Positions 300 through 54,116 of a stretch of DNA of 64,000 bases are shown one piece after another. Origin of the DNA: a virus (Duplodnaviria; Caudoviricetes); the IMG/VR virus record IMGVR_UViG_3300021400_000128, positions 72,916-136,915 of that record; one strand, 5' to 3'. The notes below the pieces were generated by a model. That model saw nothing but the letters and a program-made list of their open reading frames with translations. It was not told where the DNA came from and did not search any database. Positions within the stretch are counted from its first letter, which is position 1. Every line of letters starts with the position of its first letter. A program made the translations under genes and the position numbers.

Positions 300-443
300 T
301 TGACACTCCCCATGCCTAAAGGCAGGGGATTCTCTCTCGATGACGGTAACCCGCCAAGCATAAAAGAGCTATCTCCGTGTGCCCCACGGTTAGTTCGTCT
401 TTGACCCCATAGCTAAAGCAAGGGGATTGCAGACGGTTTTTTG
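300..443 (-). mobile_element. Non-autonomous IS605-type mini-element (left end + omegaRNA + right end, no ORF)
   Basis: Right end TTGACACTCCCCATGCCTAAAGGCAGGGGATTC identical to the TnpB elements; left-end hairpin CCCCATAGCTAAAGCAAGGGG; flanked by TTGAA (444-448, minus strand). Confidence 0.9.
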
Positions 444-3767: not shown

Positions 3768-4059
3768 TTTTGACCTTCCTTTACAATTTGCTGGCCTCGT
3801 TTTATTGCTTTGACACTCCCCATGCCTAAAGGCAGGGGATTCTTAAGAAGGTTGCTAAGATAGCCTTATTCTTAAAGGGCTTGCCAATAGCCCGCTATCC
3901 AGTCTTTCAAAATTGAAATTCTGTTTACATTTCCGTTACCGCCTTATATCCCCATAGTTGAAGCGAGGGGTTTTACGGCTGTTTTCTGATAAAATCACCG
4001 TACCAGTTTGTTTCGAATTGAAAATCAAAATTCTTCAGCATTTGCTGTCGAAGTGTCAT
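3764..4059 (-). pseudogene. 38-aa ORF interrupted by the mini-element
   Basis: Removing 3810-3988 restores MTLRQQMLKNFDFQFETNWYGDFIAIKRGQQIVKEGQK*. Confidence 0.65.
3810..3988 (-). mobile_element. Non-autonomous IS605-type mini-element with a third omegaRNA-like scaffold
   Basis: Same right-end hairpin; left end CCCCATAGTTGAAGCGAGGGG; TAM-like TTTAT at 3989-3993. Confidence 0.85.
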
Positions 4060-24316: not shown

Positions 24317-24386
24317 AGGGATGCCCTCCTTTTTCGATTAGGACACCCCTTCTTAGGGCGCATGTCACTCGATTTAATTATACAAC

Positions 24387-24502
24387 TTGACACTCCCCAT
24401 GCCTAAAGGCAGGGGATTCTTGCTTCACCCACCACAGCATGATTTTCATCACGTCTTACACGATGTCCACAAGCGTTGATTCCCGTGTGTCCCACGGTAT
24501 TT
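24387..24502 (-). ncRNA. TnpB omegaRNA (reRNA) scaffold overlapping the tnpB 3' end
   Basis: ACCGTGGGACACACGGG hairpin ... GTGAAGCAAGAATCCCC ... GTGTCAA. Confidence 0.8.
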
Positions 24503-25599
24503 TCTTTTAAAATTTCCAATCCTTTATTCAGAATGTTGATCGCTGCATTAGCATCACGATTATGATGAGTTCCACATTTTGGACAGTCCCATTCTCGGAT
24601 CGATAAATCCTTTACTTCAGGATTTTTATATCCGCATTGGTTACATGTCTGACTGCTTTCATAGAAGCGTGGTATTTTAACTAATATTCCTTTCCTGTCA
24701 CTCATCTTGTATTGCAGCATTCTGAAAAATTCACTCCAACTTACATCTGCGATTGATCGTGCTAATTTATGATTTTTCATCATTCCTTTGATGTTCAGAT
24801 CTTCAACACATACAACTTGATTCTCGTTTGCAAGTGTTGTTGTCACTTTATGAAGGAAATCTGTTCTGATATTAGTCACTTTTTCGTAAGCAATCGCAAC
24901 TTTTATTCTCTGCTTTTCTCTGTTGTTGCTCCCCTTTACTTTTTTTGACATTCTTCTTTGTGTTCTTGCAAGTTTTTTTGCGTATTTTTTATATGTTTTC
25001 GGATTCGGGATACTATTTTCATTACTGTCAACAAGAAAATCTTTGATCCCAACATCTATTCCAATAATGCCTCCGTTATTTGTCAATTCAGGTTCATCTG
25101 TCTCAACACAAAGCGAAACATAATACTTTCCACTCATCGATTTACTTATTGTTGCATTCAGGATTCGTCCATCGAAGTGTTTCAGTCCTTTATATCTGAC
25201 ATAACCGATTTTAGGTAGCTTGATTGTATTTGCGACAAGCCTAATTCCGTTACTCTGATTTCTTGTTCTGAAAGATTGTTTTCTTTTCTTTGAATGGAAC
25301 TTTGGGAATCCGGCATTCCTTTTGAAGAAATTTTGATAAGCCTTATCTAAATCCTTCAAAGTCTCTTGATATGCCATGCTGTCGGTCAGGTTTAGCCATT
25401 CTTGAGTTCCGTCTTTTTTTAGCTCCGTCAACAACCGCATCGTTTCATACATTGACACTGATTTCTTTTCTTCTTTGTATGACTTAATCCGAAGATCAAG
25501 AAAATGATTATATACATAGCGAACATTTCCAAATGTCTGCTCAATTTGGCTCTTTTGTTCTCTCGTTGGATATAATCTCGCCTTGTATCCTTTGTTCAT
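24403..25599 (-). CDS. tnpB: RNA-guided endonuclease TnpB
   Basis: YKARLYP HTH; RuvC GIDVG / VEDL / RDANAA; CNQC...CPKC. Confidence 0.95.
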   Translation of the reverse strand: MNKGYKARLYPTREQKSQIEQTFGNVRYVYNHFLDLRIKSYKEEKKSVSMYETMRLLTELKKDGTQEWLNLTDSMAYQETLKDLDKAYQNFFKRNAGFPKFHSKKRKQSFRTRNQSNGIRLVANTIKLPKIGYVRYKGLKHFDGRILNATISKSMSGKYYVSLCVETDEPELTNNGGIIGIDVGIKDFLVDSNENSIPNPKTYKKYAKKLARTQRRMSKKVKGSNNREKQRIKVAIAYEKVTNIRTDFLHKVTTTLANENQVVCVEDLNIKGMMKNHKLARSIADVSWSEFFRMLQYKMSDRKGILVKIPRFYESSQTCNQCGYKNPEVKDLSIREWDCPKCGTHHNRDANAAINILNKGLEILKENTVGHTGINACGHRVRRDENHAVVGEARIPCL

Positions 25600-25724
25600 A
25601 CAACACTCACTCGAATAATATTAATATTACCGTCTTTCATCCCCATAGCTAAAGCAAGGGGCTTTTCGGCGATTTTTGGTAATCGCCCAACTGTCCGCTC
25701 AGTTCCATTTGAAAACGTGTCATT

Positions 25725-28610: not shown

Positions 28611-29867
28611 TTAGCTTCGTGGGAGGAACGCCGAATTTCTTTTTTCAACAATGTAACTATTATTAGGTTGTATCAGTTTTAATTTCTTGTAACTGACTGA
28701 ACCATTATTTACCTTTGTTCCGTCCAAAGAACGGATGTCAAAATATCCACTATCTCGACGTCCAAATACAATATATGGCTTATCTTGATACACAACCATA
28801 TCGAACAACCGAAATCCCCTTACTTCGTGTGGAGCTTGATTTCTCTTTTTTGCCCCACCTTTCAAAAAATTACATTTGTGTATCTGCCTGTTGTGACAGC
28901 GAACTTTTCTGTAGAAAAAGACTTCACCGTTACTCTTCGCTGTAGGATTCCCGCTGATACACCGTGCATCGATGTAATGATCCTTTGGTAACCCATTCTC
29001 AATACGAGTATGTTTTGTGATATACCCATAAGTAAGATTCACGTTAAGATATGTCTGCTTCAGTTTTCCGTAAAATGCCCATCGCATGATTCCCATAAAA
29101 GCAGCATCTTTGAAACTCATACCGCGTTTAATTCTTTTCGGGAGATCAACTGTTCCGTTATGATATCCTTTATGACAGGTCTCACACAGCGTAATAAGAT
29201 TGTTCGGAGCATCTCCACCGGTTTTCCTTGATTCAATATGATGCACATTCAGAATCTTATCTTTTGACTTTCCTTTACAGCATTGACACTTATGACCATC
29301 CCTGTATAAAACATATTCACGCACATTCCAAAATCCTAACTGTTCACCCTGCTGATACTCTGCACCACTGATTTCAGGATTCTTGATTTTCTGAATATCA
29401 AATGAAGCAACCTCCACCATTATTTTTGAAACGGGTAGTATATTATGGATTCTCCGAATAAATGAAAGATGCGTGTCAACCTTCTGCTGTACTGAAGGTG
29501 CTAACCAGCCGTCTTTCCGCTTGCGGTTATCAAATCTTGCTTTGCGATAACGTAGTTTACGGTTCCGGCGAGAGCTTCTTTGTTCTCTCCGGGATGAAAG
29601 CAATTTCACGATATCGTTTCTTACTTCAACATTTGCTTCAAATAAGACTTTTTCTTTTGTTGTAGTAGAGATACCAATCACCTTTGATCCGGCATCGACG
29701 CCTAAAGTAACCTCCTGCGTATAATTTGTTGTTTCATACGCTAACTGTATTGTGAACGGACATTTCTTGATTACCTTTGCCTTATGCGACTTTAGGAGAA
29801 TACGCACTTTTGCATGGTTCTCTGTGGGCATTAAGGGCTGTCCGTTTGCGCTTATAACATAAACCAT
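28611..29867 (-). CDS. iscB: RNA-guided endonuclease IscB
   Basis: PLMP domain; LGVDAGS; Arg-rich bridge helix; VEVASFD; CQCC..VHHI..NLITLCETCH (HNH); HYIDA. Confidence 0.95.
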   Translation of the reverse strand: MVYVISANGQPLMPTENHAKVRILLKSHKAKVIKKCPFTIQLAYETTNYTQEVTLGVDAGSKVIGISTTTKEKVLFEANVEVRNDIVKLLSSRREQRSSRRNRKLRYRKARFDNRKRKDGWLAPSVQQKVDTHLSFIRRIHNILPVSKIMVEVASFDIQKIKNPEISGAEYQQGEQLGFWNVREYVLYRDGHKCQCCKGKSKDKILNVHHIESRKTGGDAPNNLITLCETCHKGYHNGTVDLPKRIKRGMSFKDAAFMGIMRWAFYGKLKQTYLNVNLTYGYITKHTRIENGLPKDHYIDARCISGNPTAKSNGEVFFYRKVRCHNRQIHKCNFLKGGAKKRNQAPHEVRGFRLFDMVVYQDKPYIVFGRRDSGYFDIRSLDGTKVNNGSVSYKKLKLIQPNNSYIVEKRNSAFLPRS

Positions 29868-29879
29868 ATTATCGTTTTC

Positions 29880-30159
29880 TCCTTTCCTAACTCTTTTCGA
29901 GTTAATAACTCACTCCGAAGAGCGGTAAGCATACCTTCGCCAATGTTATCCCAAGGTTTTGTATGTCTGCATCACTGTTCCTTCCTCACAGAACTGTTTA
30001 AACACAGACCGTAGTGTTCGGAATTAGGTATTACGTCCCGAAGTACCTATATATTCTCAGGTAACGTAGTGCTCATGGCACTTAGGCTATTCAATGTGAA
30101 TTGCTTTTCGGTTTTTGCCATCAGCAATCCCCGAAGCTTTAGCTTCGTGGGTCATTGAA
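29880..30159 (-). ncRNA. IscB omegaRNA (HEARO-type)
   Basis: TTCAA...TTGAATAGCCTAAG...ACTACGTT...TTTAAACAGTTCTG...AACATTGGCGAAGG upstream of iscB. Confidence 0.88.
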
Positions 30160-33116: not shown

Positions 33117-33554
33117 TCAGGCAGTCACTTTGCGAAAGCTGACCGTCGGATTCCCGATCTTCTTGGCGATCCCGATTTCAGGGAATTGCTTTTCCAGCAC
33201 TTTAAGCGTTTTCCCGTCCCATGTCGTCTTACCGGACACCCAGCACGCCATCAGGGATTCACCCTTGACCGTCGCACCGCATTCAAGAACATCGTTCTTG
33301 ATTTCTGCTTCGAGCAGTCCGATCTGTTCGATCAGGTCGGCGTTCTTAGCTTCAAACTGTGCCATCAGTTCGTTATAGACGTTCCGAAGGTTGTTCAGGA
33401 CATCCAGCTTTTCTTCTGTTGTTACCTTTGTCGTTACGATTTGACATTCCTCATAATGGGGATTCTCTCTCGACAATGGCAATCCATTGAGCATAAAAGA
33501 GCTATCTCCGTGTGTCCCACGGTTCGTTTTTGTTACGATTTCGATGTTTTCCAT
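33117..33554 (-). CDS. Coiled-coil phage protein (Gam/Gp157-like) carrying an in-frame 99-bp omegaRNA insert
   Basis: C-terminal GKTTWDGK.L.....PEI...K.GNPTVSFR; roughly residues 9-38 derive from the omegaRNA. Confidence 0.6.
   Translation of the reverse strand: MENIEIVTKTNRGTHGDSSFMLNGLPLSRENPHYEECQIVTTKVTTEEKLDVLNNLRNVYNELMAQFEAKNADLIEQIGLLEAEIKNDVLECGATVKGESLMACWVSGKTTWDGKTLKVLEKQFPEIGIAKKIGNPTVSFRKVTA
33441..33524 (-). ncRNA. Immobilised TnpB omegaRNA copy inside a CDS
   Basis: 33458-33524 matches 52172-52238 at 66/67 nt; right-end hairpin shortened; no left end. Confidence 0.8.
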
Positions 33555-52138: not shown

Positions 52139-52146
52139 TTTCACGC

Positions 52147-52240
52147 TTGACACTCCCCATGCCTAAAGGCAGGGGATTCTCTCTCGACAATGGCAATCCA
52201 TTGAGCATAAAAGAGCTATCCCCGTGTGTCCCACGGTTTT
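52147..52240 (-). ncRNA. Right-end omegaRNA of the adjacent TnpB
   Basis: ACCGTGGGACACACGGGGATAGCTC...GAGAGAATCCCC...GTGTCAA. Confidence 0.85.
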
Positions 52241-52248
52241 TATCAATG

Positions 52249-53379
52249 CTATTGTGCATATAATAACAACCCTTGTTTTCTGATATTGATAGCAGCATTC
52301 AAGTCTCTGTTGTGAACTGTTCCGCACTCAGGACATATCCAACTCCTATCACCTAATTTCAATTCAGCATTTACATATCCGCACTGATTACACGTTTTTG
52401 AAGAAGGAAACCACTTGTCTATCGCGATGAGCTTCTTTCCACGCTCAATCAGTTTATAGGACAGAAATGTTCTAAATTGTCCGAAACCGTTATCAGTCGT
52501 TGCTTTGGCAAGGTGTAAACCCTGTGACATTGCCTTATAGTCAATATCTTCCACGGCAATAATATCATATTGATCCGCAAGTTTGGTGCTCAACTTGTGC
52601 TGCCAATCTTGCCGACAATTGCGTACTTTTTCAAACGCACGAGCAACCTTGATTCTCTGCTTTTCCCAATTTGAGCTTCCTTTTTGTTTTCTGGATAATC
52701 TCCGTTGTTCACGTGCCAATTTTCGTTCCGCTTCACGGTAGAAATGGGGCATATCTGCTTTATTTCCTTCGCTATCCACATAAAAATGTGGGGAACTGTA
52801 ATCAAGCCCGATTGAATTTTCAGTATTCAGTTCACGTTCAGGAATATCAAGCTCATACTCAAACCCGATGGATACAAAATACTTTCCACTCGGTTCCTGG
52901 GACACTGTAGCATTCAGGATTCTTGCTCCTTCCGGTAATTTTCGGCACAGCTTTGTTTTCACTATTCCTAATTTTGGAAGGCGCACATTCCCGTTCTCAA
53001 TCCGCGTAACATTGTCGCATCCGACCGTTTGATAGGATTTTTGATTATCCTTCTTGCGCTTGAATTTCGGGAATCCAGGAGTACCACCCTTTTTTACGTT
53101 CCTGAAGAAATTCTGATACGCAGTATTCAGGTTACGGAGCGCACATTGCAAGGCGTTTTTATCCGGTTCTTTCAGCCATTCGTATTCATTCTTCAAGTCA
53201 GTAAGCATCTTGTTCTGCTGAAAAAATGATCTGCTTTCACCGTTTTCTTTATAAGCGGTGATTCTATCAAAAAGGAAGTGATTATAAACAAAGCGAACAC
53301 ATCCGAAAGTCTTCTGAATCAGCTCTTCTTGCTGCTTATTTGGATAAATTCTGTATTTGTATGCTTTATTTGAAATCAT
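52249..53379 (-). CDS. tnpB: RNA-guided endonuclease TnpB (CRISPR-adjacent), RuvC D-E-D intact
   Basis: KAYKYRIYP; IGLDYS / VEDI / RDLNAA; CNQC...CPEC. Confidence 0.95.
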   Translation of the reverse strand: MISNKAYKYRIYPNKQQEELIQKTFGCVRFVYNHFLFDRITAYKENGESRSFFQQNKMLTDLKNEYEWLKEPDKNALQCALRNLNTAYQNFFRNVKKGGTPGFPKFKRKKDNQKSYQTVGCDNVTRIENGNVRLPKLGIVKTKLCRKLPEGARILNATVSQEPSGKYFVSIGFEYELDIPERELNTENSIGLDYSSPHFYVDSEGNKADMPHFYREAERKLAREQRRLSRKQKGSSNWEKQRIKVARAFEKVRNCRQDWQHKLSTKLADQYDIIAVEDIDYKAMSQGLHLAKATTDNGFGQFRTFLSYKLIERGKKLIAIDKWFPSSKTCNQCGYVNAELKLGDRSWICPECGTVHNRDLNAAINIRKQGLLLYAQ

Positions 53380-53396
53380 TTTTCTTCCTTTTTACG

Positions 53397-53546
53397 AATT
53401 TTGCAGTCGTCTATACCCTCTTTTGGTAGGGGCTATCATCGGTTGGTATATACGTACCTAATTTAACAGGTGTCTATACCTTGGCTGCTATGTAGTAACC
53501 GGGGTTCTTTGGTATATACGTACCTAATTTAACAGGTGTCTATACC
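53397..53546 (-). CRISPR. Mini CRISPR array: two identical 36-nt repeats + degenerate terminal repeat, spacers 30 and 27 nt
   Basis: GGTATAGACACCTGTTAAATTAGGTACGTATATACC at 53511-53546 and 53445-53480; 17/21 match at 53397-53417. Confidence 0.85.
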
Positions 53547-53547
53547 T

Positions 53548-53675
53548 GGTATATTATCTTGTAAAATAAGGTACGAACTTCTTGCTTCACCGACCGCTCA
53601 GTGCAATCTCCACAAGCGTTATGTTCCCGCATACCCTGCGGTACAGTTTTAACAGTGTTTCACTGTGTTGCACTT
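53548..53675 (-). ncRNA. omegaRNA-derived tracrRNA-like scaffold with anti-repeat
   Basis: Shares TTCTTGCTTCACC and TCCACAAGCGTT with the omegaRNA at 24417-24477; anti-repeat 53548-53575 (21/28); TATAAT at 53679-53684. Confidence 0.8.
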
Positions 53676-53709
53676 ATTATTATACTCAATATCCTTGTTT
53701 TGTACAGGT

Positions 53710-53736
53710 ATTAGTGTAAAATAGTGTTACACTAAT
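53710..53736. promoter_or_regulatory. Palindromic operator in a divergent promoter region
   Basis: ATTAGTGTAA-7nt-TTACACTAAT overlaps the TG-TAAAAT -10 of the RHH gene. Confidence 0.65.
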
Positions 53737-53752: not shown

Positions 53753-53905
53753 ATGGTTTCCGATAACAATACCCGTGTCATGGTCACTATCCCGAAAGAG
53801 TTGAAAGAACAGTTGTCTGTCATTGCAGAAAATGAAGGACGCTCCCTTTCTAACCTCATTGTCCAGATTCTAAAAAATTATGTAAATGAATCCTTGACCC
53901 CATAG
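53753..53905 (+). CDS. Ribbon-helix-helix (CopG/Arc-like) regulator, 50 aa (below ORF-track cutoff)
   Basis: MVSDNNTRVMVTIPKELKEQLSVIAENEGRSLSNLIVQILKNYVNESLTP; GAAAGG RBS. Confidence 0.85.
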   Translation: MVSDNNTRVMVTIPKELKEQLSVIAENEGRSLSNLIVQILKNYVNESLTP

Positions 53906-54116
53906 CTAAAGCAAGGGGATTGCAGACGCTTTCCCATTCAATGTTTTCCTCACGGCATTTGTTACATCCATCTTTTTCATTACAATAATTATTTCTCGTG
54001 ATAAAATAGCATAACGTCGCACCATTACATAACTGTTCTCTCTCAATTTCAGTACAAGTAATTTTCATCTCTAACTCCACATGTAACACCGTCGAATGTA
54101 GCATTCAGTCAGCTTT

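What the first reader, a model, noticed from the sequence alone, without database searches (positions are those of the whole stretch)
53576..53645. The tracr-like scaffold belongs to the family of the distant TnpB (24403-25599), not its neighbour
It shares exact blocks TTCTTGCTTCACC (53579-53591 = 24417-24429) and TCCACAAGCGTT (53609-53620 = 24466-24477) with the omegaRNA of the 24-kb element. The adjacent TnpB (GLDYS type) uses a different GATAGCTC...GAGAG scaffold. Inference: either the array is served in trans by the other TnpB, or the original effector was replaced by recombination (the third repeat decays just before the tnpB RBS), or one TnpB accepts two scaffold types.
Basis: partly seen in the sequence, partly recalled or inferred. 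Interest (0 to 1): 0.7.

Follow-up and report, generated by a model that had tools for sequence, protein, structure and literature searches.

The report
Foreign-type guide scaffold beside phage TnpB
A phage-borne transposon nuclease (TnpB) has its usual guide RNA behind the gene and, in front of it, a second guide-RNA scaffold of a different sequence class joined to a tiny CRISPR-like array; this second scaffold has been inherited with this nuclease in several related phages, so one nuclease probably uses two guide formats.

Summary
Both exact blocks exist and occur nowhere else in the window.

A covariance model of the upstream scaffold, built from five related loci, scores:
- 48.7 bits on the omegaRNA of the distant TnpB-1
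- 12.3 bits on the neighbour's own 3' omegaRNA

The reciprocal model of the neighbour's class gives the scaffold 13.8 bits, from the first hairpin only.

The interpretation needs correcting. The CGCUUGUGG...GAAGCAAGAA class is not TnpB-1's own. It is the common form across phage TnpBs, including a third TnpB in this phage and the closest outgroups of TnpB-2. The neighbour's GAUAGCUC...GAGAGAGAA class is the derived one.

The scaffold plus mini-array lies upstream of TnpB-2-type genes (82-90% identical) in five other loci with sequence. One of these is a decayed remnant without spacers. The 11 spacers are all different. The scaffold is more conserved (91-93% nt) than tnpB (80-86%), and a pseudoknot co-varies between scaffold loop and repeat tail.

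Most likely reading: a foreign-class omegaRNA was captured into an LE-RHH-tnpB element and now serves the adjacent TnpB-2. This is a TranC-like variant. Use in trans by TnpB-1 or TnpB-3 is not excluded. Earlier notes of this scan describe TranC-like phage systems in other genomes.

The parts
53578..53645 (-). omegaRNA-type scaffold core (hairpin P1 with pseudoknot loop GGGUA, closing stem P2 CUUGU/GCAAG, inner hairpin P3): the tracr-like scaffold of the finding
   Evidence: Model R1 98.8 bits. Five orthologous copies with 95% mean column identity. Covariation of P1-P3 across 24 distinct tracr and native RNAs: 99.4% of cells paired, 15 of 16 pairs with compensatory changes.
53548..53575 (-). 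anti-repeat, 28 nt, 21/28 complementary to the repeat; it occupies the place of the right-end hairpin of a native omegaRNA
   Evidence: Inverted repeats I1/I2. Decayed in L016 and collapsed to GTACC-AAA-GGTAC in L001.
53509..53546 (-). repeat 1 (36 nt plus AA); its 3' tail UACC pairs with the P1 loop GGUA
53481..53508 (-). spacer 1 (28 nt)
   Evidence: Differs from all spacers of related loci. No match in the phage's own genome, the GenBank phage set or IMG/VR.
53443..53480 (-). repeat 2 (identical to repeat 1)
53418..53442 (-). spacer 2 (25 nt)
53389..53417 (-). degenerate terminal repeat: the 5' half is kept, the pseudoknot tail is lost, and it runs into the tnpB ribosome-binding site
   Evidence: Repeat family D2. 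The same decay is seen in L001, L010, L011, L012, L016 and L017.
52249..53379 (-). tnpB-2 (376 aa), ISDra2-like; the RuvC residues appear intact by eye (GLDYS, VEDID, NRDLNAA)
   Evidence: Pfam HTH_OrfB_IS605, OrfB_IS605 and Cas12f1-like_TNB. PDB 8H1J/8EXA, E 5e-85 over the full length.
52146..52240 (-). the element's own 3' omegaRNA (type-2 core 52176-52240, right-end hairpin 52155-52175, pseudoknot strand UGUC, end ...GUCAAG)
   Evidence: Model R2 90.9 bits. Covariation 100% paired, 8 of 16 pairs compensatory.
53679..53706 (-). promoter-like site (TGTACA-16-TATAAT) about 30 nt upstream of the scaffold; no minus-strand terminator lies before tnpB
53710..53736 (.). perfect 10-bp inverted repeat between the divergent promoters; likely RHH operator
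   Evidence: Inverted repeat I5. Analogous palindromes are seen in L001, L016 and L017.
53753..53905 (+). divergent 50-aa ribbon-helix-helix gene
   Evidence: Pfam RHH_5, 2.3e-11. Orthologues in L015, L016, L017 and array-less L013.
53898..53918 (-). left-end hairpin of the IS200/IS605-type element, identical to those at 25641 and 405
24386..24501 (-). omegaRNA of TnpB-1 (type-1 core 24416-24501, plus a right end whose 35 nt are identical to that of element 2)
   Evidence: Model R1 48.7 bits. Right-end identity.
24403..25599 (-). tnpB-1 (open frame of 398 aa running through its omegaRNA), 46% identical to TnpB-2

Best explanation
Window 53578-53645 (minus strand) is the P1-P2-P3 core of an omegaRNA/reRNA-type scaffold. 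Together with the adjoining anti-repeat and the 36-nt repeats it forms a complete guide RNA in split (tracr + crRNA) or fused form. The repeat stands in for the right-end hairpin, and its 3' tail makes the pseudoknot with the P1 loop just before the spacer. In sequence the scaffold belongs to the widespread CGCUUGUGG...GAAGCAAGAA class, which includes the omegaRNAs of TnpB-1 and TnpB-3 of this phage and of many other phage TnpBs. It does not belong to the derived GAUAGCUC...GAGAGAGAA class that the TnpB-2 clade uses as its own 3' reRNA. Inferred history: a foreign-class omegaRNA module was captured once, between the RHH gene and tnpB of an LE-RHH-tnpB-2-reRNA-RE element, and has been inherited with that tnpB ever since. 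Inferred mechanism: the minus-strand promoter at 53679-53706 transcribes scaffold, array, tnpB and 3' reRNA together. TnpB-2 then loads either its own reRNA (transposon homing or retention) or the scaffold/crRNA guides (targets of the variable spacers, probably competing mobile elements). The two RNAs have the same architecture but different pseudoknot sequences (GGUA:UACC against GACA:UGUC), which would keep them from mispairing. Shown here: class membership, architecture, co-variation, linkage and spacer turnover. Inferred only: transcription, processing, loading onto TnpB-2 and DNA cleavage.
For: Class assignment: model R1 gives 48.7 bits on omegaRNA-1, 34.5 on omegaRNA-3 and 12.3 on omegaRNA-2; model R2 gives 13.8 bits on the scaffold. 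Shared architecture: P1-P3 are 99.4% paired with 15 of 16 compensatory pairs across tracr and native RNAs, and the type-2 class has the same three helices. Function with the array: the pseudoknot co-varies at a fixed offset, GGUA:UACC in the window and L011, and GUUA:UAAC in L001, L016 and L017. P1 shows a double compensatory change in L011. Linkage to TnpB-2: the scaffold with repeats and spacers sits directly upstream of TnpB-2 orthologues in the window, L001/L015, L011, L016 and L017. L010 shows the array but its contig ends before the scaffold. L012 keeps a scaffold remnant and no spacers. Two further loci known from gene calls alone have an RHH gene and a 300-400 bp gap. These loci form one clade with 100% support. 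All 11 spacers differ. The scaffold is 91-93% identical in nucleotides, against 80-86% for tnpB and 80-83% for the 3' omegaRNA. In L012, where no spacers remain, P1 is also gone. The scaffold and repeat patterns were found nowhere else in IMG/VR or the JGI metagenomes. Plausibility of dual use: the nearest outgroups of the TnpB-2 clade (TnpB-3, L002, L030/34) use the type-1 class, and L018's omegaRNA is intermediate at 24.2 bits on R1. Capture rather than effector swap: array-less L013 has a homologous RHH (48% identity, E 4e-12) in the same LE-RHH-tnpB layout. Co-transcription: a promoter-like site and no intervening terminator.
Against: The single-stranded junctions of the two classes differ strongly, so acceptance of both by one protein is not a given. 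This complete phage also encodes TnpB-1 and TnpB-3, whose native RNAs are of the scaffold's class and which could use it in trans. The other array-bearing loci are short contigs, so trans partners cannot be excluded there. No protospacer was found, so targeting is unproven. In L001 and L017 the anti-repeat is reduced to 5 nt, leaving it unclear how downstream crRNAs would dock. The timing of gain rests on two array-less outgroup loci.
Confidence: 0.6

Rival explanations
1. Service in trans: the scaffold and array are guide RNAs for TnpB-1 and/or TnpB-3, whose native omegaRNAs are of the same class. Linkage to tnpB-2 would then be positional only, for example because the module rides in the same mobile element.
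For: R1 scores of 48.7 (omegaRNA-1) and 34.5 (omegaRNA-3) against 12.3 for omegaRNA-2. All three TnpBs sit in one complete phage genome, and their RuvC motifs look intact by eye.
Against: The module is inherited with tnpB-2 across a clade that has diverged to 80-86% nt identity, and it was found with no other effector. The terminal repeat abuts the tnpB-2 ribosome-binding site, and the layout suggests one transcript. Neither TnpB-1 nor TnpB-3 has relatives with this repeat in 80 IMG/VR loci.
Confidence: 0.15
2. Effector replacement: an older tracr-array-TnpB-X locus with a type-1 RNA lost TnpB-X to recombination with a TnpB-2 element. The scaffold is then a leftover that TnpB-2 may or may not use.
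For: Modules recombine readily here. The 35-nt right end and 21-nt left-end hairpin are identical between elements whose TnpBs are 46% identical. Solo scaffolds lie upstream of other tnpB genes in L021 and L025.
Against: The module lies inside the IS ends, between an RHH gene and a tnpB that are already neighbours in array-less L013. No locus with this scaffold and another effector was found. Strong conservation after the event argues for continued use.
Confidence: 0.12
3. Cis-regulatory leader: the scaffold and repeats are a structured 5' UTR through which TnpB (or the RHH protein) controls tnpB translation. The 'spacers' would be neutral filler.
For: The terminal repeat overlaps the ribosome-binding site region in every locus. 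L012 keeps P2-P3 and the terminal repeat although it has no spacers.
Against: A leader would not need a pseudoknot strand placed exactly before each variable 25-30-nt segment, a 36-nt repeat periodicity, or complete spacer turnover between close relatives.
Confidence: 0.08
4. Decaying relic with no present function.
For: The array is tiny, its last repeat is degenerate, the last spacers are short (17-25 nt), and no protospacers were found.
Against: The scaffold is more conserved than the coding gene. Compensatory changes occur in P1, P3 and the pseudoknot. Spacer content differs in every locus.
Confidence: 0.05

Closest known systems
TranC (transposon-CRISPR intermediates; Jin et al., Cell 2025;188:6283, known here only through PMC13565253, PMC13639567 and bioRxiv 10.64898/2026.03.27.714800)
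   Same: A TnpB-sized effector of IS605 ancestry. The reRNA architecture is split into a tracr-like scaffold and repeat-spacer units. Repeats are 36 nt in a short array, there are no adaptation genes nearby, and the system is carried by a phage (a phage-borne TranC9 is reported in the preprint).
   Different: The effector is a close ISDra2-type TnpB (E 5e-85); the solved LaTranC matches only the C-terminal half at 8e-25. It still lies between IS left and right ends and keeps its own complete 3' reRNA. The array is upstream, whereas conserved Cas12-array associations are almost always downstream (PMC10691335). The tracr scaffold is of a different sequence class from the effector's own reRNA, so it was not made by splitting that reRNA. 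There are only 2-4 repeats.
Canonical IS200/IS605 TnpB-omegaRNA (OMEGA) systems, e.g. ISDra2
   Same: The same protein family. The scaffold shows the same kind of layout as the native 3' omegaRNAs compared here: P1 with a pseudoknot loop, P2, P3, a terminal hairpin and a pseudoknot strand before the guide.
   Different: The scaffold is 5' of the gene, carries no transposase-binding right-end hairpin, and is followed by several repeat-spacer units instead of one flank-derived guide.
omegaRNA of TnpB-1 (window 24386-24501) and of TnpB-3 (genome 68370-68475)
   Same: The CGCUUGUGG...GAAGCAAGAA core, the P1-P2-P3 layout, and exact blocks of 12-15 nt.
   Different: P3 is 20-35 nt longer in the native RNAs. 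The pseudoknot sequences differ (GACA:UGUC and GAAC:GUUC against GGUA:UACC). The native RNAs end in right-end hairpins.
Type V-U / Cas12f-like mini-array systems and omegaRNA arrays (PMC10691335)
   Same: TnpB-like nucleases linked to short arrays without cas1/cas2. That paper proposes array origin from omegaRNA segments.
   Different: Those effectors are generally immobilised with the array downstream. Here the element ends and the native reRNA persist.

Membership tests
omegaRNA class 'type-1' (CGCUUGUGG...GAAGCAAGAA; includes omegaRNA of TnpB-1) | Conserved core sequence around P2 (5' CGCUUGUGGAG, 3' GAAGCAAGAA) | tested here: met
   Exact blocks. Reciprocal scoring with model R1: 48.7 bits on omegaRNA-1 and 29-50 bits on 20 or more native phage omegaRNAs.
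omegaRNA class 'type-1' (CGCUUGUGG...GAAGCAAGAA; includes omegaRNA of TnpB-1) | P1-P2-P3 secondary structure with compensatory changes | tested here: met
   99.4% of cells paired and 15 of 16 pairs compensatory; slid controls give 36-44%. The alignment was fitted to the model, which favours the structure.
omegaRNA class 'type-1' (CGCUUGUGG...GAAGCAAGAA; includes omegaRNA of TnpB-1) | Location at the 3' end of a tnpB gene, ending in a right-end hairpin | tested here: not met
   It lies 200 nt upstream of tnpB-2, and an anti-repeat/repeat replaces the right-end hairpin.
   The class is spread over the TnpB tree, including TnpB-3 and the sister group of the TnpB-2 clade.
omegaRNA class 'type-2' (GAUAGCUC...GAGAGAGAA; neighbour's own reRNA) | Match to the type-2 covariance model | tested here: not met
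   R2 gives 13.8 bits, from the P1 hairpin only, against 76-95 bits for true members.
TranC / nascent type V CRISPR-Cas | TnpB-derived RuvC effector next to a repeat-spacer array | tested here: met
   tnpB-2. Two identical 36-nt repeats and one degenerate repeat, with 28- and 25-nt spacers.
TranC / nascent type V CRISPR-Cas | Guide RNA split into a tracr scaffold with anti-repeat and a crRNA | tested here: inconclusive
   The anti-repeat is 21/28 complementary and the pseudoknot co-varies. However, the anti-repeat is decayed or collapsed in L001, L016 and L017 and absent in L011. There is no RNA data.
TranC / nascent type V CRISPR-Cas | Spacers vary between related loci | tested here: met
   11 different spacers in 6 loci whose TnpBs are 83-90% identical to TnpB-2.
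TranC / nascent type V CRISPR-Cas | Spacers match mobile-element targets next to a TAM/PAM | tested here: inconclusive
   No significant hit in the phage's own genome, the GenBank phage set or IMG/VR for the spacers tried.
TranC / nascent type V CRISPR-Cas | RNA-guided cleavage with crRNA (and with reRNA) | not testable with these tools
   Needs interference or TAM-depletion assays.
IS200/IS605 TnpB element | Left and right subterminal hairpins, tnpB, 3' omegaRNA | tested here: met
   Left-end hairpin 53898-53918, right-end hairpin 52155-52175, identical to those of element 1 and of the solo-RNA element at 300-430. Ends are lost in L012 and L016.

The most novel reading that the evidence does not exclude
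A still-mobile, ISDra2-like TnpB is served by two guide-RNA systems. They share one architecture but differ in sequence and have non-interchangeable pseudoknots. One is its own 3' reRNA. The other is a horizontally captured omegaRNA of another class that became a tracr plus CRISPR-like mini-array placed upstream. This would be an independent route to a type V-like system: capture of a foreign scaffold rather than splitting or duplication of the effector's own reRNA. It would also show natural tolerance of two scaffold classes by one TnpB.
Probability: 0.45. Interest if true: 0.8.

Novelty: new variant of a known kind. Interest (0 to 1): 0.6.

Why it matters
Current accounts have type V arrays arising from the effector's own omegaRNA, by functional splitting or serial duplication, or from insertion next to an existing array (PMC10691335; Jin et al. 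2025 as summarised in PMC13565253). Here the helper scaffold is of a different sequence class from the effector's own reRNA. Both RNAs are kept and the element still has its transposon ends. If the adjacent TnpB uses both, three things follow. First, guide scaffolds would be exchangeable modules among TnpB lineages. Second, there would be a natural example of dual-scaffold tolerance, useful for engineering compact editors with two orthogonal guide formats. Third, it would document an early step from a selfish element toward phage-borne immunity or inter-phage conflict. If the array instead serves TnpB-1 or TnpB-3, it would be a case of guide supply in trans between co-resident OMEGA systems.

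Tried and rejected
- **Exact repeat in IMG/VR:** the 36-nt repeat found nothing.
- **Degenerate repeat and scaffold patterns:** in IMG/VR and JGI metagenomes these found only one other phage, the same sequence in four loci (L001, L006, L014, L015).
- **Broad core pattern:** this gave one informative native omegaRNA (L007) and two chance hits inside tail-fibre genes (L008, L009).
- **Megablast of the element against GenBank phages:** no match.
- **Protospacer searches:** no self-match in the 137-kb genome or in any fetched locus with up to 4 mismatches. Only chance-level hits (E 0.2-10) for three spacers in the phage set. No exact hit for spacer 1 in IMG/VR.
- **The genome search 'relatives':** not available for a virus record.
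- **Counting TnpB genes in the records of other array-bearing loci:** only an 8.8-kb fragment could be reached.
- **DNA of the two most useful relatives:** not retrievable for the 138-kb contig with the 96% TnpB or the 59-kb contig.
- **Rfam:** no family covers these TnpB omegaRNAs; only HEARO was found.
- **Idea that the spacers copy the element's own right-end flank (guide):** rejected, as they do not match it.
- **Idea that the repeat is the right-end hairpin of another TnpB in the set:** rejected, as the repeat occurs only in these arrays.
- **The GLDY/GIDVG motif as a predictor of scaffold class:** rejected, because TnpB-3 is GLDY-type with a type-1 omegaRNA.

Full report
**Setting.** The window is the last 64 kb of a complete 136.9-kb virus record with direct terminal repeats. 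The phage carries:
- three full tnpB genes: TnpB-1 at window 24403-25599(-), TnpB-2 at 52249-53379(-), and TnpB-3 at genome 68346-69584(-), outside the window
- one Y1 tnpA, directly upstream of tnpB-3
- an IscB with its HEARO RNA
- several solo omegaRNA elements

TnpB-2 is 46% identical to TnpB-1 and 44% to TnpB-3. It matches ISDra2 TnpB over its whole length (E 5e-85).

**The observation.** Both exact blocks are present at the stated coordinates, colinear, and unique in the window. On the minus strand, 53578-53645 reads as follows:
- hairpin P1: CCGCA-GGGUA-UGCGG
- a spacer segment
- closing stem P2: CUUGU...GCAAG
- inner hairpin P3: GAUUGC-ACUGA-GCGGUC

I built covariance model R1 from this stretch and its four orthologues, and model R2 from ten RNAs of the neighbour's class.

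| RNA scored | R1 (scaffold model) | R2 (type-2 model) |
|---|---|---|
| omegaRNA of TnpB-1 (24416-24501) | 48.7 bits | 21.3 bits |
| omegaRNA of TnpB-3 | 34.5 bits | no hit listed |
| TnpB-2's own 3' omegaRNA | 12.3 bits (filters off) | 90.9 bits |
| upstream scaffold (53578-53645) | 98.8 bits | 13.8 bits (P1 only) |

At the level of sequence class the scaffold goes with omegaRNA-1, not with its neighbour's RNA.

**What the class is.** The CGCUUGUGG...GAAGCAAGAA core is not private to TnpB-1. R1 finds it at the 3' end of more than 20 distinct phage tnpB genes at 29-50 bits. The best are L021 (49.5), L081 (48.9), TnpB-1 (48.7) and L034 (47). On these RNAs together with the tracr copies, P1-P3 are 99.4% paired and 15 of 16 pairs show compensatory changes. 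That alignment was fitted to the model, which favours the structure.

A protein tree (quick method) gives three results:
- TnpB-1 sits far from TnpB-2.
- The TnpB-2 clade (22 rows, support 100) is nested in a starred 29-row clade (support 99) with L005 and a weakly supported group (SH-aLRT 80) of TnpB-3, L002 and L030/31/34/37; that group uses type-1 RNAs.
- The GAUAGCUC...GAGAGAGAA class occurs only in the TnpB-2 clade and in solo elements.

Type-2 has the same three helices: 100% paired, with 8 of 16 pairs compensatory. Its P2 is CUCUU/GAGAG where type-1 has CUUGU/GCAAG. L018's RNA is intermediate. So the two "types" are variants of one architecture, and type-2 is the derived form.

**The scaffold works with the array.** Directly 3' of the scaffold lie, in order:
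- a 28-nt anti-repeat, 21/28 complementary to the repeat
- two identical 36-nt repeats separated by a 28-nt spacer
- a 25-nt spacer
- a terminal repeat that decays into the tnpB ribosome-binding site

The repeat tail just before each spacer pairs with the P1 loop, and the pair co-varies:

| RNA | P1 loop : tail |
|---|---|
| window, L011 | GGUA:UACC |
| L001, L016, L017 | GUUA:UAAC |
| native RNAs of elements 1 and 2 | GACA:UGUC |
| TnpB-3 | GAAC:GUUC |

The last two rows were read from the sequence. The upstream RNA is therefore a complete omegaRNA analogue in which the repeat replaces the right-end hairpin.

**Who is the partner.** Relatives of TnpB-2 at 82-90% identity from different metagenomes carry the same module directly upstream of tnpB:
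- L001/L015: two spacers
- L016: two spacers
- L017: three spacers
- L011: one spacer, no RHH gene
- L010: contig starts inside the array
- L012: scaffold remnant without P1, no spacers

Two more loci, known only from gene calls, have an RHH gene and a 300-400 bp gap. These loci form one clade with 100% support.

All 11 spacers differ. Across these loci the scaffold is 91-93% identical in nucleotides, against 80-86% for tnpB and 80-83% for the type-2 omegaRNA. The scaffold and repeat patterns were found with no other effector in IMG/VR or the JGI metagenomes.

Array-less members of the wider clade already have the type-2 3' RNA: L013 at 73% and L018 at 70% identity. L013 also has a homologous RHH gene (48% identity, E 4e-12) in the same LE-RHH-tnpB order.

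The simplest history is that a foreign-class omegaRNA module entered an existing LE-RHH-tnpB-2-reRNA-RE element and has since been kept under selection next to that tnpB. A promoter-like site (TGTACA-16-TATAAT, 53706-53679) lies about 30 nt upstream of P1, and no minus-strand terminator precedes tnpB. One transcript could therefore supply both RNAs.

**Verdict on the three proposals.**
- One TnpB with two scaffold formats is the best supported; I put it at about 0.6.
- Service in trans by TnpB-1 or TnpB-3 remains possible, because both sit in the same phage and use the scaffold's class. Nothing requires it, however, and linkage argues against it.
- Effector replacement is disfavoured by the ancestral LE-RHH-tnpB layout, though it is not excluded.

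Nothing here tests binding or cleavage. No protospacer was found, and no expression data could be obtained.

**Relation to known systems.** The locus works like a TranC or early type V system: the reRNA architecture is split into tracr and crRNA. These systems are described in Jin et al. 2025, which I know only through PMC13565253, PMC13639567 and bioRxiv 10.64898/2026.03.27.714800. Earlier notes of this scan report TranC-like phage systems in other genomes (e1-5466754, e1-5709296, e1-5657082), so the kind is known.

The differences are:
- The effector is an ISDra2-type TnpB, far from the solved LaTranC.
- It still lies inside IS ends and keeps its own reRNA.
- The array is upstream, whereas conserved Cas12-array associations are almost always downstream (PMC10691335).
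- The tracr scaffold is of a different class from the effector's own reRNA.

I rate it a new variant of a known kind, with interest 0.6.

Noticed in passing
L099:447-2065 (genome 68346-69964, outside the window): A complete IS605-type unit: a Y1 tnpA (Pfam Y1_Tnp, 1.5e-42) directly upstream of tnpB-3. It has a type-1-class omegaRNA, its own right-end hairpin (CTCGGTCATTTATGGCCGAG) and its own pseudoknot pair GAAC:GUUC. This is the only tnpA in the phage, and its hairpins differ from those of elements 1 and 2.
   Followed up: partly
window 300-430: A solo-RNA element: right end, type-2 omegaRNA (R2 93.2 bits) and left end, with no tnpB. It amounts to a free-standing guide RNA of the neighbour's class.
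   Followed up: partly
window 3810-3970 and L100 (genome 11195-11355): Two further small elements with the same right- and left-end hairpins but an unrelated about 90-nt interior. The two copies are nearly identical.
   Followed up: no
window 33462-33526: An orphan type-2 scaffold core (R2 90.4 bits) without right- or left-end hairpins.
   Followed up: no
window 28611-30159: An IscB gene (RRXRR + HNH, 418 aa) with its HEARO omegaRNA (130.7 bits) upstream. The phage thus carries four OMEGA nucleases.
   Followed up: partly
window 24386-24420 = 52146-52180; 25641-25661 = 53898-53918 = 405-425: The right end (35 nt) and left-end hairpin (21 nt) are identical between elements whose TnpBs are only 46% identical. 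This suggests exchange or conversion of ends, or a shared transposase supplied from outside the phage.
   Followed up: no
L021:1038-1180 and L025:968-1064: Solo omegaRNA scaffolds just upstream of other tnpB genes. In L021 a type-2 RNA with its right end abuts the left end of a type-1 TnpB element, the mirror image of the arrangement studied here. In L025 an orphan type-1 scaffold lies 140 nt upstream of tnpB. Tandem insertion may be the route by which foreign scaffolds come to lie in front of tnpB.
   Followed up: partly
L001:2347-2371, L017:398-424, L016:1339-1389: Natural single-guide-like fusions. The anti-repeat/repeat duplex of the window is shortened to GTACC-AAA-GGTAC (L001) or partly decayed (L016), while downstream full repeats persist.
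   Followed up: partly
L012 and L016 (3' flanks): Array-clade elements that have lost the right-end hairpin; L016 has lost the left end as well. These copies appear immobilised.
   Followed up: no
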